Shown here one piece after another: positions 1 through 5,549 of a DNA stretch of 5,549 nt. A model generated the notes under the pieces. That model had not been told where the DNA came from. It made no database searches and saw nothing but the letters and a program-made list of their open reading frames with translations. The stretch spans positions 1 through 5,549 of the forward strand of contig JBMFRC010000042.1 of assembly GCA_049968235.1 (NCBI GenBank). Direction: 5' to 3'. The number at the start of each line of letters is the position of its first letter. Position 1 is the stretch's first letter. This DNA is from Candidatus Hydrogenedens sp. (GTDB taxonomy: Bacteria; Hydrogenedentota; Hydrogenedentia; Hydrogenedentales; Hydrogenedentaceae). A program made the translations under genes and the position numbers.

Positions 1-396
<396 letters not shown>

Positions 397-500: not shown

Positions 501-617
<117 letters not shown>

Positions 618-890: not shown

Positions 891-2396
891 ATGAATACAT
901 CAAATCAAGAATCAAAAAAGTTTTCGTCCTGTTTCTCAGGTTGTTCACGCAGGCAATTCATTCTGGCTTCGGCAGGTATGGTGGCAGTGGCTAATCTGCC
1001 GATTTATGGGAAATCTATTGTTGAGCAGGGACCCTTGGCTGAGTTACAGATTAAGAGTAAGGTTAGGGTAGGAAAAATGTATGTCGGTATTCCCAGCCCC
1101 GGTTGGCCTATGCATCTGGTTGACCTGAAAGCGGAAGTAAACCGATATGAACAGGAAATATCGAAACTCAAAGAACAACTTGCTGATATTGAATTTGTGG
1201 AAGGTGGGCTGGTTACAAATCAAGATGAACTTGCAAAAGCAAAAGAAAAGTTTGGGGATGTGACGGGGATATTGGTTCTGCATCTGACTTTAGGCACAGG
1301 CGGGCTGATTTCAGGGTTGTTTGACATGAACAAGCCTGTGATGATTTTTACCATGCCGTATTGTGGGCATGAATGGCATATTGTTCCATCGTGGCAGAGG
1401 GAAGGAAAAATTGTGGATATAGTTCCAAGCAGTCAATATGCAGATATTGCTGAAGCGGTGAAACCGTTCCGTGCTATTCAAAGACTAAAAGAGACACGAA
1501 TACTCCATGTAAACTATGGTGAAGCAGACCCGCAATATTGTGCTTCTATTAAGGAGAAATTTGGAACTGAAATCATTACAGTAACACTTCCGGAACTTGA
1601 AAAGGCTTACGAGGAAGCATCCGAAGAAGAGGTGCTTGCTGATACAGAAAGATGGATTAAAGAAGCGGAGAAAATTGTTGAGCCCGGTAATGAAGATATA
1701 AAAAAAGGGGCGAGAATGTATATTGCTATGAAGAATCTTATGAAGAATTACAAGGCACAAGCCATTACAATGAATTGTTTAGGTATGAAATTAATGGAAA
1801 GGAATATGGGCTATCCGTGTTTAGGCTTTGTTCGATTAAATAATTCCTTGCTTGCAGGTGTGTGTGAGGCAGACCTGAAATCTACAATGACACAACTACT
1901 ATTTACCTATCTCGTGGGACGCACAGGTTTTGTTACTGACCCGATGTTTGACCTTTCAAATAATACAATCATACATGCCCATTGTGTCGCAGCGACACAG
2001 ATGAAAGGTCCGAATACCGAGCCTTCCCCTTACATAGTGAGAACTCATTTAGAGGACAATAGAGGCGTTTCACTGCAAGTGAAGATGCCTGTCGGCGAAA
2101 AAGTAACTATGGCACGACTAATAGGTAGCGATATATTGCTGTATAGCACCGGTGATGCCATCGATAGTCCACTTGAAGAGCGTGGCTGTAGAAGTAAATT
2201 AACGGTAAAAGTGGATAATATAGATAATTTCCTATATAACTGGTCATGTGGACTACATCGTGTAATCTTTTATGGTGACCACACAAGGGATATAGAACGC
2301 TATTGCAGGTTAACAAGAATTAAAATCCTCCGCGAAGGGATTGATAATCTCCATCATGTCGAAGGACTTGAATGGAACCCCAATGTCCATGCATAG
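891..2396 (+). CDS. L-arabinose/L-fucose isomerase family (AraA/FucI superfamily) sugar isomerase with N-terminal twin-arginine (Tat) signal peptide
   Basis: 501-aa ORF with ATG at 891 and TAG at 2394-2396. The N-terminus 'SCFSGCSRRQFILASAGMVAVANLPIYG' is a canonical Tat motif (S-R-R-x-F-[IL]) followed by a hydrophobic h-region. The core 'GVCEADLKSTMTQLLFTYLVGRTGFVTDPMFD' resembles the AraA metal-site motif 'GEGDWKTAALLRIM...TSFMEDYTY', and 'TIIHAHCVAATQM' resembles the AraA His-containing strand. Antisense ORFs inside it are AT-rich junk. Confidence 0.8.
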   Translation: MNTSNQESKKFSSCFSGCSRRQFILASAGMVAVANLPIYGKSIVEQGPLAELQIKSKVRVGKMYVGIPSPGWPMHLVDLKAEVNRYEQEISKLKEQLADIEFVEGGLVTNQDELAKAKEKFGDVTGILVLHLTLGTGGLISGLFDMNKPVMIFTMPYCGHEWHIVPSWQREGKIVDIVPSSQYADIAEAVKPFRAIQRLKETRILHVNYGEADPQYCASIKEKFGTEIITVTLPELEKAYEEASEEEVLADTERWIKEAEKIVEPGNEDIKKGARMYIAMKNLMKNYKAQAITMNCLGMKLMERNMGYPCLGFVRLNNSLLAGVCEADLKSTMTQLLFTYLVGRTGFVTDPMFDLSNNTIIHAHCVAATQMKGPNTEPSPYIVRTHLEDNRGVSLQVKMPVGEKVTMARLIGSDILLYSTGDAIDSPLEERGCRSKLTVKVDNIDNFLYNWSCGLHRVIFYGDHTRDIERYCRLTRIKILREGIDNLHHVEGLEWNPNVHA

Positions 2397-2624
2397 ATTA
2401 TTGAAAAGAAACAAAGGATGAAATTATATTTTCCTGTTGTATTTTATTGCAAAAAAAAATTGAACAACAAAACCCTGCATAACAAAGTTAAATAATTTAA
2501 CAGCAATTCTTTATTTGCACATTCTTTAAATTTATGAAGTTATATACTGCCAAAATATATCACAATTTAATTGTTAACATAAATTTATTTTGAGAGTTCT
2601 TTTTGTTTTGTCGTCATTTTTGAA

Positions 2625-3398
2625 TCAATCGTTTTTTTTAATAGTCTCTGCCAATTCTATTTCATCAAATAAGGTTTTCCAGCCTATTACAGGTACGCCA
2701 TCTTTTATTTCTGGCGGAGAATGGTGCTTAAGTATTACGAGTATAGGGATGGACATTCTTCCTAATATTTCAGATTGAGCCTTAATTTTATTGATTTTAT
2801 TGGTTATAGTAAAACTACGTTTAGATACTTTGCAAGCTATTACTAAATAGCTTTGTTCAAAAACACAGGCTATATCTATTTCACTTTTAAATGCATGGCC
2901 TTGATATTCTTCATTTATGTTTCTCTGATTCTCTTCTGACCATTTTGTTTTTATCCCTAATCGAATTTGCTTACAACCTATTTTCTCAAATGCAAATGCG
3001 GTTAATTCTTCAAAAAAGTGTCCATCACTCCTCTTAGCCTCTAATATGTGGTCAATATCATTATCTATTTCTTCTGCAGTTAATATTTTATTCTTCAATA
3101 CTTTATCTTTTAAGTTTTTGAATTTGGTAATGAAATTTTGGTAGAGACTTTTTTTGTCATTATTCAATGTTTTCCCTATATTTTTGATATCATCTTTCAT
3201 TTGTAATACTATTACTAAAGGAGGTTCCTTTAATGGTATTTTTTCAGAACCATCTAATAAATCAATGGTATTAGTACTATTATTAATAGAATATATCTTT
3301 CCATGTTGTTTTATTCCCCAAAAACTTAGTACTCCAGCATGAGATTTTGGTCCGGGTGTTATATTTATGATTGCTTCTCCATTCCCAAACATCTTCAT
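2625..3398 (-). CDS. Hypothetical protein; C-terminal half resembles an Mrr-type PD-(D/E)xK restriction-endonuclease fold (possible nuclease effector)
   Basis: 257-aa ORF, 77 nt downstream of the CARF gene on the same strand. Segment 'FEELTAFAFEKIGCKQIRLG...QGHAFKSEIDIACVFEQSYLVIACKVSKRSFTITNK...ILGRMSIPILVIL' matches the Mrr_cat layout: a helix with FE..l....L...GY, a Gly + hhhD strand (EIDIA), then hh.xCK (IACK). Motif III has Ala where Q/E is usual. The N-terminal ~110 aa (K-rich linker) is of unknown function. Weak RBS. Confidence 0.6.
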   Translation of the reverse strand: MKMFGNGEAIINITPGPKSHAGVLSFWGIKQHGKIYSINNSTNTIDLLDGSEKIPLKEPPLVIVLQMKDDIKNIGKTLNNDKKSLYQNFITKFKNLKDKVLKNKILTAEEIDNDIDHILEAKRSDGHFFEELTAFAFEKIGCKQIRLGIKTKWSEENQRNINEEYQGHAFKSEIDIACVFEQSYLVIACKVSKRSFTITNKINKIKAQSEILGRMSIPILVILKHHSPPEIKDGVPVIGWKTLFDEIELAETIKKND

Positions 3399-3475
3399 AT
3401 TATATAAATTAAATCCTGTAATATCTGTTGGTAATGATTGTAAGCCTCTTACTTGATTCGGTAAATTAATTTTAC

Positions 3476-3976
3476 CTATTTAATTTTTTCGATAACTTTA
3501 TTCACCCGTGAATCATCATAAGTATAAATTATACAAAGATTTGAATAGTTGTGAGTATACATCACCTTCAAGGTGTTTATTAATTCAGGACTCATTACAA
3601 CATATAAAGTAGAACCTTCTTTAGGTTCTTTTATTATTTCTGGTGAATTTATTTTTTTTGATAAATCAACAGAAAATGTAGATTTATTATTTGTTTTCTC
3701 TAAATAATTTCCAAATTCATTGAGATTACTAAATATTTTAACATCTCCTATTGCCTCTGATTGAAATCTTTCCTTAGTCCTAGTATCTTTAGTCTTAGGA
3801 TATTTTTTAATGATAATAGTTTCATAACTATGAAGTTCTTTTAACTGTTTACGATCCTTTCCACAAAATGCGATAATTTTACGAACTTTGTCTAATTCGT
3901 ATGAATCTATACTTATTATAAGTTTTAAGAAATTATTTTTAGAGATAATAAAATCGAATACAATATTTTCAAGCAT
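3476..3976 (-). CDS. C-terminal fragment (166 aa from first ATG) of the frameshifted CARF-domain protein; C-terminal domain of unknown function
   Basis: ORF from ATG 3976 to the stop at 3476. The same frame stays open upstream to 4192 with protein-like sequence and no canonical start, so the true gene is longer. Contains 'DRKQLKELH' (R-x6-H), a weak HEPN-like hint only. Confidence 0.45.
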   Translation of the reverse strand: MLENIVFDFIISKNNFLKLIISIDSYELDKVRKIIAFCGKDRKQLKELHSYETIIIKKYPKTKDTRTKERFQSEAIGDVKIFSNLNEFGNYLEKTNNKSTFSVDLSKKINSPEIIKEPKEGSTLYVVMSPELINTLKVMYTHNYSNLCIIYTYDDSRVNKVIEKIK

Positions 3977-4295
3977 TATCGCCGTAGATGATTGTTTTCC
4001 TGCTTCCCGTGGTATTTTTAATGATTTAAAATTCCCTTCTCTTTGTTTACATTTATATTCAACTCCCTGGATAGCTAAAATATCTAAAGGTTCTAACTCA
4101 ATACAAGGATTTAATTCTTTATATTCACCATTATTTAAGTTAAGAGACCATATAGATTCCCTTTCTGAATATATGAAGTTTAAATGGGGGGATTAAATGT
4201 TTTTAAGTATTGAAAGACAAAACTGGCAACCTGATGGTTCATCCCTCCAGCCAGATTGAAATATATCTCCTCATCTTTATCAACAGGGATGTCTT

Positions 4296-4508
4296 TTATA
4301 TTAAAAATTGGAGCGACAATTTGTTTTGAATTTCTAATTTTGGATTCTGTTTTAACAACTGAGAAGAGATTTTATCTGTTTGTTCAGCAGTTATTTCTGT
4401 ATGTAAAAGTAAAAATTTGCATCGCGATTTTTCTAAATTTAATACAGATAGAGCAGAGTTTAGTGTTCCCATAACCTGTGTACCTACAAAAGAAATAAAT
4501 TGAGCCAT
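4296..4508 (-). CDS. N-terminal fragment (70 aa) of the frameshifted CARF-domain protein, as an ORF caller would report it
   Basis: ATG at 4508 preceded by 'aggagattaaaa'. Encodes CARF beta1-alpha1-beta2 ('FISFVGTQ...CKFLLLHTEITAEQ'). Terminates at TAA 4296-4298 only because of the upstream frameshift. Confidence 0.5.
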   Translation of the reverse strand: MAQFISFVGTQVMGTLNSALSVLNLEKSRCKFLLLHTEITAEQTDKISSQLLKQNPKLEIQNKLSLQFLI

Positions 4509-4514
4509 TTTTAA

Positions 4515-4520
4515 TCTCCT
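4515..4520 (-). promoter_or_regulatory. Shine-Dalgarno sequence (AGGAGA) of the CARF gene
   Basis: + strand 'tctcct' is 'aggaga' on the - strand, 7 nt upstream of the ATG at 4508. Confidence 0.6.
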
Positions 4521-4563
4521 ATATTCAATTTAATTAACTTTTAATTTATTTTATCTCTATTAT

Positions 4564-4605
4564 GTTATTAAATCAAAAAAATAGCCCTCTGTGCGGGGAA
4601 AATCC
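4564..4605 (-). terminator. Rho-independent terminator of the PASTA-domain gene
   Basis: Perfect 11-bp inverted repeat 'atagccctctg' (4571-4581) / 'cagagggctat' (4595-4605) with a 13-nt loop. On the - strand the stem is followed by a T7 run (A-run 4564-4570 on +). It lies 54 nt downstream of the stop at 4659. Confidence 0.65.
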
Positions 4606-4658
4606 AGAGGGCTATGTATGTTGTGACAGAAAGTTTTCTCCCTGATGGGACTGAATGT

Positions 4659-5549
4659 TTAATTGTGCGTGTGTTTGCGTTTCCGTGTTTGAACGAGGAG
4701 TAGTCCGGAAAGGATAGTTAGCATTACCCAATCGCCTGTGTTGGAGTTATCCGATGAACTATGGGTTCCACAAGAAACGATAAATCTGCGTTTCTTACCC
4801 TTGCTAACAATTAAATCCACAGGGGTATCCTTTGCAACTCGCGCACCTGCTTCTGGCGCCTGACTAATTACACTTCCTTTTGGAACAGTGTCACTATATT
4901 CTTGTTTAATCGTTCCTACAGTAAGTCCGGAAGCAATTATTTTTGTTCTTGCATCCTGTTCTGTCATCCCAACCACATTGGGTACTGAGATAGGGCATGG
5001 ACCTGTAGAAACTACGAGATTTACTGATGTTCTTTTATTAACTGTTTGTGCTGGTAATGGACTCTGACTAATAACATTTCCTTCAGGAACGGTATCACTA
5101 CATTGTCTTGTTATGCTTCCCACAACCAGTCCTATGGATGTTATTTGTTCGATTGCTGATGTCTCGGAACTACCAATTAGATATGGAACTGTAACCTTTT
5201 CGACTTCACCTTCCACGATACCTTCCGGAGTACCCTCTGGTGTCCCTTCGGGAGTTCCTTCCACGACGCCTTCCGGAGTACCGTCGGGCGTACCTTCCGG
5301 GGTCCCTTCCACGACGCCTTCCGGAGTTCCCTCTGGCGTTCCTTCGGGCGTTCCTTCAACCACACCTTCCGGTGTACCTTCTGGCGTGCCTTCTGGAGTA
5401 CCTTCGACTACACCTTCGGGGGTGCCTTCCGGCGTCCCTTCTGGCGTTCCTTCACCTTCTACAACTCCTTCTCCTTCTGGAGTGCCTTCGCCTTCAGGAC
5501 ATGGTCCTGTGGATACCCAAAGATTCACTAATGTTCCTACCTCTACAGT
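4659..5549 (-). CDS. PASTA-domain repeat protein (N-terminus outside the window; PknB-like Ser/Thr kinase or PBP-associated sensor not decidable), with a PEGT-rich repetitive linker and a C-terminal hydrophobic/basic tail
   Basis: The reading frame is open to the window edge. The listed GTG at 5526-5528 is not the real start: upstream codons continue '...TVEVGTL'. Two full PASTA units: 'VPYLIGSSETSAIEQITSIGLVVGSITRQCSDTVPEGNVISQSPLPAQTVNKRTSVNLVVSTGPCP' and 'VPNVVGMTEQDARTKIIASGLTVGTIKQEYSDTVPKGSVISQAPEAGARVAKDTPVDLIVSKG'. These match the PASTA consensus (vP.vvG.t..eA...l...Gl.v......s..v..G.Vi.Q.P.aG..v..g..V.L.vS.G). A third unit ends '...NLWVSTGPCP' at the window edge. The C-terminus is '...SSSDNSNTGDWVMLTILSGLLLVQTRKRKHTHN'. 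Confidence 0.85.
   Translation of the reverse strand, partial: TVEVGTLVNLWVSTGPCPEGEGTPEGEGVVEGEGTPEGTPEGTPEGVVEGTPEGTPEGTPEGVVEGTPEGTPEGTPEGVVEGTPEGTPDGTPEGVVEGTPEGTPEGTPEGIVEGEVEKVTVPYLIGSSETSAIEQITSIGLVVGSITRQCSDTVPEGNVISQSPLPAQTVNKRTSVNLVVSTGPCPISVPNVVGMTEQDARTKIIASGLTVGTIKQEYSDTVPKGSVISQAPEAGARVAKDTPVDLIVSKGKKRRFIVSCGTHSSSDNSNTGDWVMLTILSGLLLVQTRKRKHTHN
5190..5507 (-). repeat. Imperfect 48-nt tandem repeat (~5-6 copies) inside the PASTA gene, encoding (TPEG)3-VVEG linker units
   Basis: Protein 'EGTPEGTPEGTPEGVVEG' is reiterated. On the + strand the recurring unit is 'ccttccggagtaccctctggtgtcccttcgggagttccttccacgacg' with synonymous third-position variation between copies. The RK-rich ORF 5177..5365 is an alternative-frame artefact of this repeat. 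Confidence 0.8.

What the first reader, a model, noticed from the sequence alone, without database searches (positions are those of the whole stretch)
4659..4800. PASTA protein ends in a sorting-signal-like tail (hydrophobic helix + RKRK), and each PASTA unit ends in GPCP
Downstream of the last PASTA domain the protein finishes with 'SSSDNSNTGDWVMLTILSGLLLVQTRKRKHTHN'. This is a short polar stretch, a ~13-residue hydrophobic segment and a basic cluster at the extreme C-terminus. That is the tripartite layout of LPXTG, PEP-CTERM and GlyGly-CTERM sorting signals, but with none of their canonical motifs. PknB-type proteins instead anchor through an internal TM and end with PASTA. All three visible PASTA units also terminate in an invariant 'VSTGPCP', giving one Cys per unit with possible disulfide or metal roles. 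Together these point to an atypical cell-surface PASTA protein, perhaps processed by an unrecognised sortase or exosortase-like system.
Basis: partly seen in the sequence, partly recalled or inferred. Interest (0 to 1): 0.5.

Follow-up and report, generated by a model that had tools for sequence, protein, structure and literature searches.

The report
Undescribed cysteine-box C-terminal sorting tail
The last 45 residues of this protein are a conserved tail found on several unrelated exported proteins in Hydrogenedens bacteria; it has the layout of a cysteine-containing surface-sorting signal but matches no catalogued family, and whether it is actually processed is unproven.

Summary
The tail is real and sits on the minus strand (4659-4796). 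The GPCP claim is only partly right: two of three visible PASTA units end in GPCP, and those units carry a covarying cysteine pair, not one cysteine.

The full-length ortholog (L005, 1,843 aa) has a Sec signal peptide, GLUG modules, four PASTA units and a ~490-aa TPEG linker. It has no kinase and no internal TM, so it is not PknB-like.

All 34 distinct tails keep a basic run, F-I-[IV]-S-C-G, an 11-13-residue polar spacer, an invariant Asp, 13-15 hydrophobic residues and a basic end.

The tail ends four architectures that otherwise share no domains, two of them without PASTA. It occurs 2-5 times per genome. Only 12 clusters among 1.84 billion proteins carry it, and the named records are Candidatus Hydrogenedens/Hydrogenedentes MAGs.

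It meets seven of Haft's eight sorting-signal attributes outright and the eighth in part. Its geometry mirrors the TraA MYXO-CTERM tail, but it matches no NCBIfam sorting model.

Best reading: an undescribed member of the Cys-containing C-terminal sorting-signal class. Processing and the enzyme are inferred, not shown; no candidate enzyme lies near any locus.

The parts
5496..5549 (-). C-terminal end of a PASTA unit cut by the window edge (...VNLWVSTGPCP); the gene's 5' end lies outside the window
   Evidence: Translation. The ortholog L005:4940-10471 shows the equivalent PASTA followed by the linker.
5196..5495 (-). Pro/Glu/Gly-rich linker of 16-residue TPEGTPEGTPEGVVEG repeats (about 100 aa here, about 490 aa in the ortholog)
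   Evidence: Tandem repeat with a 48-bp period, 5.1 copies, at 5209-5453. Translations.
4992..5195 (-). PASTA domain with a cysteine pair (C150 at 5100-5102 in RQC-SDTVP; C185 within GPCP at 4992-5003)
   Evidence: Pfam PASTA. Coordinates. Cys co-occurrence 17/2/0/95.
4797..4991 (-). Last PASTA domain, cysteine-free (Y in place of Cys1, SKGKK in place of STGPC)
   Evidence: Pfam best stretch 188-250. The AF2 model has pLDDT >90 over this domain.
4767..4796 (-). Signature motif of the tail: polybasic run plus box, KKRR-FIVSCG. The invariant Cys is at 4770-4772. I-V-S-C fits the lipobox consensus.
   Evidence: I, S, C and G are invariant and F is present in 33 of 34 distinct tails. Coordinates.
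4734..4766 (-). Polar Ser/Asn/Thr/Gly spacer (THSSSDNSNTG), predicted disordered
   Evidence: The spacer from G to D is 11-13 residues in all 34 tails. AF2 pLDDT is <50.
4692..4733 (-). Invariant Asp plus a 13-residue hydrophobic segment (D-WVMLTILSGLLLV): the predicted transmembrane helix
   Evidence: D is invariant in 34/34 tails. AF2 predicts a helix at residues 86-104 of the model.
4662..4691 (-). Basic C-terminal end (QTRKRKHTHN), predicted cytoplasmic by the positive-inside rule
   Evidence: Translation. Nearly all of the 34 tails have a basic cluster.
4659..4661 (-). TAA stop codon
4574..4615 (-). Terminator-like hairpin (11-bp stem, 13-nt loop) followed by U7, 44 nt after the stop
   Evidence: RNA fold -25.2 kcal/mol, z = -4.0, 0 of 200 shuffles as stable. 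The consensus scanner missed it because the loop exceeds 8 nt.

Best explanation
The window holds the 3' end of a gene for a very large Sec-exported protein of a Candidatus Hydrogenedens relative. By orthology it has a signal peptide, GLUG-type modules, PASTA units and a long TPEG stalk. It ends in a previously uncatalogued tripartite C-terminal sorting and anchoring signal of the cysteine-containing class.

Shown here. The tail is an autonomous, conserved, strictly C-terminal module: polybasic run, F-I-[IV]-S-C-G, an 11-13-residue polar spacer, Asp, 13-15 hydrophobic residues, basic end. It is shared by several otherwise unrelated signal-peptide-bearing proteins per genome, within one narrow lineage.

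Inferred mechanism, by analogy with MYXO-CTERM and myxosortase. After Sec export the protein is held in the inner membrane by the C-terminal helix, with the basic end in the cytoplasm. The invariant Cys of the lipobox-like box is lipid-modified. An intramembrane protease, most likely CPBP/Rce1-type, removes the helix distal to the Cys. The mature protein stays anchored by its modified C-terminal Cys, helped by the adjacent polybasic and hydrophobic residues, and is displayed at the cell surface.

The Cys-free PASTA unit that usually precedes the tail, and the extended Pro/Glu linker, would act as a wall-proximal stalk.
For: Topology. The full-length ortholog L005:4940-10471 (1,843 aa; its C-terminal fragment P0002 is 78% identical to the window query) starts MKKEIFKSGMGLYFYIFFCILLIIFSPLFAYA|AP. 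It has no kinase and no internal TM. The 501-aa neighbour is 87% identical, so synteny is conserved.

Modularity. The tail ends four architectures: GLUG/PASTA; CarboxypepD_reg-dockerin-cohesin; DUF7948-Ig-like x3; and FTP-Peptidase_M4-TIG. Two forms lack PASTA before the tail (L009/L027/P0077 and L019/L040/L044). By BLASTP the M4/TIG type shares only the tail with the Ig type and nothing with the other two. GLUG versus the PASTA-less cohesin type share only the tail.

Multiplicity. There are 5 genes in Ca. H. terephthalaticus and 4 in MAG CAKZKR01.

Conservation. In 34 distinct tails I, S, C, G and the TM-edge D are invariant. HMM scores are 48-77 bits against 9.5 or less for noise.

Rarity. 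12 clusters among 1.84e9 proteins and 13 loci in 5 of 185,579 species genomes.

Signal peptides are visible on every carrier with a complete N-terminus.

A PASTA-repeat homologue from elsewhere (P0009) carries GlyGly-CTERM instead (17.7 bits against 15.5).

AF2 gives a confident PASTA fold, a low-confidence spacer and a terminal helix, and does not dock the box onto PASTA.

Literature. Haft's eight attributes of such signals, and the Cys-containing class with CPBP enzymes (10.1101/2023.06.07.544157). MrtX cleavage of TraA needs the Cys, and the TraA tail AFCCG-12 aa-TM-RPRRPAR has the same geometry (PMC11980579).
Against: No processing enzyme was identified. No CPBP, exosortase, rhombosortase or sortase lies within 10 kb of about 40 tail loci, and whole genomes could not be searched. 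The literature says housekeeping myxosortases are never adjacent to their substrates, so this is weak negative evidence.

Cleavage and lipidation are entirely inferred.

Most carriers share the linker-PASTA-tail cassette, so part of the spread could be duplication of a cassette rather than selection on a signal.

The box sits 11-13 residues from the membrane. In PEP-CTERM, PGF-CTERM, GlyGly-CTERM and CGP-CTERM the motif abuts the TM.

The basic cluster is Lys-rich rather than Arg-rich.

The window's own genome could not be checked for paralogues, and the window gene's N-terminus is inferred from an ortholog.
Confidence: 0.6

Rival explanations
1. Plain, unprocessed C-terminal membrane anchor. 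The proteins remain type I inner-membrane proteins. The conserved FIxSCG box has another role, such as an intermolecular disulfide, oligomerisation, or docking to a partner or to peptidoglycan together with the adjacent PASTA. The TPEG stalk simply spans the periplasm.
For: The signal peptide plus a single C-terminal helix with a basic end is sufficient for stop-transfer anchoring. No processing enzyme was found near any locus. Most carriers keep a PASTA, a peptidoglycan-associated domain by general knowledge, right next to the tail.
Against: A passive anchor does not explain five invariant juxtamembrane residues plus an invariant Asp across proteins that otherwise share nothing. The hydrophobic segment is only 13-15 residues, which is short for a stable bilayer span. 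The ectodomains (M4 protease with propeptide, cohesin/dockerin-like, Ig-like, GLUG) are typical of extracellular or surface proteins, and loci from the lineage encode outer-membrane and LPS functions (Lip_A_acyltrans, Alginate_exp). So an inner-membrane tether would keep them from the surface. The tail meets seven of Haft's eight sorting-signal attributes outright and one in part.
Confidence: 0.28
2. Release signal rather than anchor. The lipobox-like I-[IV]-S-C is handled by the ordinary lipoprotein machinery (Lgt, then cleavage before the Cys as Lsp does). The passenger would be cut free from a small lipidated C-terminal peptide and secreted.
For: I-[IV]-S-C fits the lipobox consensus [LVI][ASTVI][GAS]C in 33 of 34 tails (the consensus is from general knowledge). 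One carrier is a thermolysin-type protease with a propeptide, a class that is usually released. A fraction of MYXO-CTERM proteins is also released extracellularly (PMC11980579).
Against: Lsp acts on an N-terminal signal peptide whose helix lies before the lipobox; here the helix is after it and the topology is inverted. The polybasic run upstream of the box would be left on the released protein without an obvious role. There is no direct evidence.
Confidence: 0.07
3. Standard PknB/Stk1-type PASTA kinase, or a PBP, whose C-terminus merely happens to be hydrophobic.
For: PASTA units hit the NCBIfam PknB_PASTA_kin model over the PASTA region only (112 bits against a cut-off of 450). JGI auto-annotations call many PASTA fragments 'serine/threonine-protein kinase'.
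Against: The full-length ortholog has no kinase or transpeptidase domain and no internal TM, and it starts with a cleavable signal peptide. The tail is conserved on non-PASTA proteins.
Confidence: 0.02

Closest known systems
MYXO-CTERM sorting signal / myxosortase MrtX (Myxococcota; TIGR03901)
   Same: Tripartite C-terminal tag with an invariant Cys followed by Gly, a TM helix and a basic end. It occurs on many unrelated Sec-exported surface proteins per genome, in a diderm. The TraA tail (AFCCG, 12-residue polar spacer, 12-residue TM, RPRRPAR) has the same geometry as FIVSCG, 12-residue spacer, 13-residue TM, QTRKRK (PMC11980579). Metalloprotease carriers exist in both; NCBIfam has a 'myxosortase-dependent M36' model.
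   Different: None of six tails registered on TIGR03901.2 at E<=10, while the TraA control scores 20.6 against a cut-off of 20. The box here is F-I-[IV]-S-C-G with a polybasic prefix and fits a lipobox, whereas MYXO-CTERM is GCGC-like with 'no defined lipobox'. Further differences: an invariant Asp at the TM edge, a Lys-rich end, and a different phylum (Hydrogenedentota, FCB group). The enzyme is unidentified.
[quoted passage not shown]
   Same: An invariant Cys in the signature motif, the tripartite layout and lineage restriction (10.1101/2023.06.07.544157).
   Different: Different motifs: a DP inside the TM for JDVT, a Pro in a Leu-rich TM for Synerg, and CGP abutting the TM for CGP-CTERM. 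JDVT is a one-enzyme, one-substrate neighbour pair, and no such pairing is seen here. No HMM match.
GlyGly-CTERM/rhombosortase, PEP-CTERM/exosortase and LPXTG/sortase
   Same: The general tripartite design, with multiple substrates per genome. LPXTG signals also have a spacer between motif and TM. A PASTA-repeat protein from another lineage (P0009) carries GlyGly-CTERM.
   Different: There is no GG, PEP or LPXTG motif. The LPXTG_anchor model reaches only 12-13 bits against 15.9, over the TM and basic part alone. Those signals have no invariant Cys.
Bacterial lipoprotein signal (lipobox; Lgt/Lsp)
   Same: A basic run followed by [LVI][ASTVI][GAS]C. Here that is KKRR-F-I-[IV]-S-C, in 33 of 34 tails.
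   Different: It is located at the C-terminus rather than the N-terminus. Only three hydrophobic residues separate the basic run from the Cys, instead of a 7-22-residue h-region. The TM follows the Cys instead of preceding it.
PknB/Stk1 PASTA kinases and PASTA-bearing PBPs
   Same: Extracytoplasmic PASTA repeats.
   Different: There is no kinase or transpeptidase domain. An N-terminal cleavable signal peptide replaces the internal TM, and PASTA is only one module within a 1,843-aa multidomain protein.

Membership tests
Tripartite C-terminal protein-sorting signal (Haft attributes, 10.1101/2023.06.07.544157 section 5) | 1. [quoted passage not shown] | tested here: met
   All 12 library hits and all locus hits end within about 10 residues of the stop.
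Tripartite C-terminal protein-sorting signal (Haft attributes) | 2. [quoted passage not shown] | tested here: met
   5 genes in Ca. H. terephthalaticus AWNW01, 4 in CAKZKR01, and 2 each in DAOOVZ01 and CALLRP01. This was not testable for the window's own genome.
Tripartite C-terminal protein-sorting signal (Haft attributes) | 3. [quoted passage not shown] | tested here: met
   In F-I-x-S-C-G, the residues I, S, C and G are present in 34/34 distinct tails and F in 33/34.
Tripartite C-terminal protein-sorting signal (Haft attributes) | 4. Strongly hydrophobic TM-like middle region | tested here: met
   13-15 hydrophobic residues follow an invariant Asp. AF2 predicts a helix, at low confidence. 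The segment is on the short side.
Tripartite C-terminal protein-sorting signal (Haft attributes) | 5. Cluster of basic residues at the end | tested here: met
   RKRK, RKGRK, KKSKK and similar occur in nearly all tails. They are Lys-rich rather than Arg-rich, and one tail (P0077) ends with a single K.
Tripartite C-terminal protein-sorting signal (Haft attributes) | 6. N-terminal signal peptide on most carriers | tested here: met
   By inspection, every carrier with a complete N-terminus starts with a basic n-region and a hydrophobic h-region. This covers the L005/L038, L034, L027, L037, L044, L040, L006 and L010 genes and P0083. No dedicated signal-peptide predictor was available.
Tripartite C-terminal protein-sorting signal (Haft attributes) | 7. 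Pairs of carriers with no similarity outside the signal | tested here: met
   BLASTP: the M4/TIG type shares the tail only with the Ig type, and has no hit to the GLUG or cohesin types. GLUG versus the PASTA-less cohesin type share the tail only. The other pairs share only the linker-PASTA-tail cassette.
Tripartite C-terminal protein-sorting signal (Haft attributes) | 8. Homologues elsewhere that lack the signal or carry a different one | tested here: met
   P0009 (3 PASTA) carries GlyGly-CTERM, 17.7 bits against 15.5 for the isolated tail and 15.3 in the whole protein. Tail-less PASTA/GPCP paralogues end in an EF-hand/dockerin-like module instead. This evidence is modest.
Tripartite C-terminal protein-sorting signal | A cognate processing enzyme that co-occurs with the signal, and demonstrated cleavage | not testable with these tools
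   No candidate lies within 10 kb of any locus.
MYXO-CTERM (TIGR03901) | Match to the curated HMM at or above its cut-off; restricted to Myxococcota | tested here: not met
   None of six tails registered at E<=10, while the TraA positive control scores 20.6 against 20. The named carrier records are Hydrogenedentota MAGs.
LPXTG / GlyGly-CTERM / PEP-CTERM and the other NCBIfam CTERM models | Signature motif and an HMM score at or above the cut-off | tested here: not met
   The best result is LPXTG_anchor at 12.1-13.0 bits against 15.9, over the TM and basic part only. No other CTERM model hits.
PknB/Stk1 PASTA kinase | N-terminal cytoplasmic kinase, an internal TM, and C-terminal extracellular PASTA repeats ending the protein | tested here: not met
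   The ortholog has a signal peptide, no kinase and no internal TM. The NCBIfam PknB_PASTA_kin model scores 112 bits against a cut-off of 450, over the PASTA part only.
PASTA domain (PF03793) | Pfam HMM at or above the gathering score | tested here: met
   108.5 bits against 23.2, in two stretches.

The most novel reading that the evidence does not exclude
The tail is an 'inverted lipoprotein' signal. Its canonical lipobox (I-[IV]-S-C), placed on a flexible spacer next to a C-terminal helix, would be diacylglycerylated directly by the housekeeping Lgt and then clipped by a CPBP-type protease. That would leave a C-terminally lipidated protein with a polybasic patch, a bacterial analogue of the K-Ras polybasic-CAAX anchor. 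If so, it would be natural evidence that Lgt is the missing acyltransferase of all Cys-containing C-terminal sorting signals.
Probability: 0.15. Interest if true: 0.75.

Novelty: new variant of a known kind. Interest (0 to 1): 0.55.

Why it matters
C-terminal sorting signals determine which proteins a bacterium displays on its surface. The cysteine-containing class gained an experimentally proven enzyme only in 2025, and the lipid-attaching step is still unknown.

This tail would add a fifth family to that class, from an uncultured phylum (Hydrogenedentota) whose envelope biology is essentially unstudied. It also gives a specific marker for the lineage's surface proteome: GLUG/PASTA, cohesin/dockerin-like and Ig-like proteins, and an M4 protease.

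Unlike MYXO-CTERM, its Cys sits in a sequence that fits the lipoprotein lipobox. That makes the hypothesis of Lgt-type lipidation of C-terminal tags directly testable, for example by fusing the tail to a reporter in E. coli.

It also corrects automatic annotations that call these fragments 'serine/threonine-protein kinase'.

Tried and rejected
1. I tried to recover the window gene's own 5' end. The only public contig carrying the neighbouring gene (GCA_049969095.1 JBMFPN010000267.1, 4,642 bp) is shorter than the window and breaks inside the TPEG repeat. The architecture therefore had to come from the ortholog.

2. A word-index search with the tail alignment returned only one hit among 17 candidates. 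That was uninformative about distribution and was superseded by the exhaustive HMM search.

3. I screened neighbours for a sorting enzyme. In 515 kb around about 40 tail loci the only polytopic proteins are Nramp, MFS, TauE and DUF502. None has the CPBP motif set, and there is no sortase, exosortase or rhombosortase. This does not refute processing, because housekeeping myxosortases are not adjacent to their substrates either.

4. NCBIfam scans of the tails against all curated CTERM models were negative, with a working positive control.

5. I rejected the idea that the FIVSCG box is an extra strand of the PASTA fold. The box occurs without PASTA, and AF2 does not dock it onto the sheet.

6. 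I rejected the PknB/PBP reading.

7. I rejected the idea that GPCP belongs to the tail signal. GPCP-type units are the upstream ones and the tail-proximal unit lacks it.

8. Literature searches for Hydrogenedentes with exosortase or with PASTA found nothing relevant.

9. The consensus terminator scan found nothing. A direct fold shows a long-loop hairpin followed by a U-run.
Full report
**What is in the window**

The finding lies on the minus strand. The reading frame is open from the right edge of the window (5549) to a TAA stop at 4659-4661. The 296 visible residues are, in order:
- the end of a PASTA unit (...VSTGPCP, 5496-5549);
- about 100 residues of 16-residue TPEGTPEGTPEGVVEG repeats (5196-5495), which form a 48-bp tandem repeat in the DNA;
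- two complete PASTA domains (4992-5195 and 4797-4991; Pfam 1.6e-31);
- the tail KKRRFIVSCG-THSSSDNSNTG-DWVMLTILSGLLLV-QTRKRKHTHN (4662-4796).

An 11-bp hairpin followed by a U7 run lies 44 nt after the stop (z = -4.0).

The window starts in the 3' end of a 23S rRNA gene followed by a 5S rRNA gene. The only public contig found via a neighbouring gene is shorter than the window and breaks inside the repeat. The gene's own 5' end is therefore unavailable.

**Checking the observation**

The tail has a polar stretch, 13 hydrophobic residues and an RKRK cluster.

The GPCP statement is only partly right:
- Two of the three visible PASTA units end in VSTGPCP. The last one ends VSKGKKRR.
- GPCP-type units carry two cysteines, not one. 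The second is in the motif x-C-SDTVP.
The units are related, so the Fisher p-value of 2e-18 is only indicative.
- This pattern points to an intradomain disulfide in the upstream PASTA units. It has nothing to do with the tail, because the tail-proximal PASTA always lacks both cysteines.

**Topology**

The closest homologues are from Candidatus Hydrogenedentes. In Ca. Hydrogenedens terephthalaticus the ortholog's gene call was truncated; its C-terminal fragment P0002 is 78% identical to the window query. The full ORF (L005:4940-10471) encodes 1,843 residues.
- It begins with a typical Sec signal peptide (MKKEIFKSGMGLYFYIFFCILLIIFSPLFAYA|AP).
- It continues with GLUG/IgA-protease-like modules and four PASTA units, then about 490 residues of TPEG repeats, with the last two PASTA units and the tail following the repeats.
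- It has no kinase, no transpeptidase and no internal TM.

Synteny supports orthology. The convergent 501-aa neighbour is 87% identical.

Homologues P0002, P0005 and P0038 share not only the hydrophobic-basic end but also an upstream box, RFIVSCG.

I collected tails from four sources: a genome scan (13 loci in 5 species-level genomes), a metagenome scan (25 loci), an exhaustive profile search and neighbouring genes. Together they gave 34 distinct tails.

All 34 share the following:
- a basic run, usually K-R-R;
- the box F-I-[IV]-S-C-G, with I, S, C and G invariant and F present in 33 of 34;
- a polar Ser/Asn/Gly/Thr spacer of 11-13 residues;
- an invariant Asp;
- 13-15 hydrophobic residues;
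- a Lys/Arg cluster.

A local HMM separates true tails (48-77 bits) from everything else in 515 kb of loci (9.5 bits or less). Every true tail is at the C-terminus.

The tail is rare. Only 12 clusters at E<=1e-3 were found among 1.84 billion representatives. The named genomes are Ca. Hydrogenedens or unclassified MAGs. One contig is labelled Nitrospirales, but its gene is nearly identical to a Hydrogenedens one, so the label is doubtful.

**The tail caps unrelated proteins**

Pfam shows four carrier architectures:
- (A) GLUG modules plus PASTA. The window gene belongs to this type.
- (B) CarboxypepD_reg, then dockerin-like, then cohesin-like domains.
- (C) DUF7948, three bacterial-surface Ig-like domains, then CarboxypepD_reg.
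- (D) A thermolysin-family protease: FTP propeptide, Peptidase_M4, He_PIG and IPT/TIG.

Most carriers have a TPEG-type linker and one Cys-free PASTA immediately before the tail. There are two exceptions:
- Type D joins the tail to a TIG domain through PEPEPP.
- Some type B proteins (L009, L027, P0077) join it directly to a GEGE linker.

BLASTP among full-length representatives shows:
- Type D shares only the tail with type C, and nothing with A or B.
- Type A and the PASTA-less type B share only the tail.
- The remaining pairs share only the C-terminal cassette.

Every carrier with a complete N-terminus has a signal-peptide-like start.

Ca. H. terephthalaticus has five tail genes, one of them a duplicated 3' fragment next to a transposase. 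MAG CAKZKR01 has four.

AlphaFold2 models the last PASTA confidently (pLDDT >90). It gives the spacer pLDDT <50 and predicts a terminal helix. It does not dock the box onto the PASTA sheet.

**Comparison with what is known**

Haft lists eight attributes of tripartite C-terminal sorting signals (10.1101/2023.06.07.544157). The tail meets attributes 1 to 7. It meets attribute 8 modestly:
- A PASTA-repeat protein from another lineage, P0009, carries GlyGly-CTERM (17.7 bits against a 15.5 cut-off as an isolated tail).
- Tail-less PASTA paralogues in the same lineage end in an EF-hand/dockerin-like module instead.

The same paper defines a class of four signals with an invariant Cys: MYXO-, JDVT-, Synerg- and CGP-CTERM. 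Each is linked to a CPBP/Rce1-type intramembrane protease.

Guo, Haft and Wall showed that MrtX cleaves the TraA MYXO-CTERM in a Cys-dependent manner. [quoted passage not shown]

The TraA tail they quote is AFCCG, a 12-residue polar spacer, a 12-residue TM and RPRRPAR. That is the same geometry as the tail here.

Membership in any curated family fails:
- None of six tails registers on any NCBIfam CTERM model.
- The best result is LPXTG_anchor at 12-13 bits against a 15.9 cut-off, over the TM and basic part only.
- The TraA control passes TIGR03901.2 (20.6 bits against 20).

So the tail works like a Cys-class sorting signal by architecture, but it is not a member of any described family.

One distinctive point concerns the lipobox. 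The authors note that MYXO-CTERM lacks a defined lipobox. Here, I-[IV]-S-C fits the lipobox consensus [LVI][ASTVI][GAS]C (general knowledge) in 33 of 34 tails, and it is preceded by a polybasic run.

**Mechanism, and how sure**

Shown by the data:
- Sec-type export signal on carriers.
- An autonomous, conserved, C-terminal, multi-copy, lineage-restricted module with a Cys box, a helix and a basic end.

Inferred:
- Retention in the inner membrane by the helix.
- Modification of the Cys.
- Removal of the helix by an intramembrane protease, CPBP-type by analogy.
- Surface display.

Loci from the lineage encode a lipid A acyltransferase, an outer-membrane beta-barrel family and flagellar and T2SS-type ATPase genes. 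This is consistent with a diderm envelope, in which an unprocessed inner-membrane tether would keep these ectodomains from the surface.

No enzyme was found. The literature notes that housekeeping myxosortases are never adjacent to their substrates, so this is weak negative evidence.

My confidence estimates are:
- processed sorting signal: about 0.6;
- unprocessed anchor whose box has another function: about 0.28;
- lipobox-driven release signal: about 0.07;
- PknB-like protein: about 0.02.

**Verdict**

The tail is real, and the sorting-signal-like reading is substantially supported. It can now be stated more sharply: an undescribed Cys-box C-terminal signal of a Hydrogenedens clade, carried here by a giant GLUG/PASTA exported protein.

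The GPCP part of the finding is a separate feature and was partly misread.

Novelty is a new variant within a known class, and interest is moderate. No literature on it was found, and NCBIfam release 20 has no model for it.

Noticed in passing
window 1-396 and 501-617 (+): The 3' end of a 23S rRNA gene (422 bits) and a complete 5S rRNA gene (114 bits). The window starts inside an rRNA operon, which probably explains the contig break.
   Followed up: partly
window ~2400-4650: A block of 25-31% GC, against 40-54% in the flanking genes. It holds three minus-strand ORFs of 257, 166 and 70 aa. It is absent from Ca. H. terephthalaticus, where the 87%-identical 501-aa gene lies about 240 bp from the tail gene, so it is an insertion. 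The 257-aa ORF (2625-3398) matches the nuclease part of the PADLOC CARF_PDDEXK/Csx1 models (1.4e-8), suggesting a defence-type island. The other two ORFs have no hits.
   Followed up: partly
window 891-2396 (+): A 501-aa protein with a TAT-like signal and weak, sub-threshold matches to the L-arabinose isomerase central domain and to sulfoquinovose isomerase. It is conserved next to the tail gene in Ca. H. terephthalaticus.
   Followed up: partly
window 5196-5495; L005:~8650-10120: The TPEG/VVEG 16-residue repeat (48-bp DNA period) is about 100 aa in the window but about 490 aa in the ortholog. Public contigs break inside it. The stalk is length-variable and prone to assembly breaks.
   Followed up: partly
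L005:3188-4711; P0010; P0026: Tail-less PASTA/GPCP paralogues in the same lineage end in two copies of 'ADQNGDGKISLxELLRVIQFFNxGGYHxC...DGYxPG'. This Cys-containing module gives only sub-threshold EF-hand and dockerin matches (E 3e-4 to 0.02). It may be an alternative, calcium-dependent attachment module.
   Followed up: partly
L002:10001-10564 (P0038) next to L002:8902-9897: A 187-aa ORF that duplicates the 3' end of the adjacent 989-aa carrier (cohesin end, linker, PASTA, tail). It lies beside an rve-family transposase and is conserved in two single-cell assemblies. It is probably a remnant of an IS-mediated duplication.
   Followed up: no
L008 (CAZJTZ010000034.1): This contig is labelled 'uncultured Nitrospirales bacterium', yet it carries a GLUG/PASTA tail gene whose C-terminus is almost identical to that of Hydrogenedens sp. 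contig L012. The taxonomic label or the binning is doubtful.
   Followed up: no
P0009 (JGI metagenome protein): A protein with three PASTA units, a poly-Pro/Ser/Gly linker and a GlyGly-CTERM tail (17.7 bits against 15.5 as an isolated tail; 15.3 in the whole protein). PASTA-repeat exported proteins with sorting tails are therefore not confined to Hydrogenedens.
   Followed up: partly
L016:10145-11197 and L014:699-1754: A YceG/MltG-type endolytic transglycosylase gene lies immediately downstream of, and convergent with, the Ig-like-type carrier in two genomes. Two DUF502 membrane proteins and GlnRS lie upstream. There is no evident functional link.
   Followed up: no
window 4574-4615 (-): A terminator-like hairpin with an unusually long 13-nt loop followed by U7. 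The consensus terminator scan missed it.
   Followed up: yes
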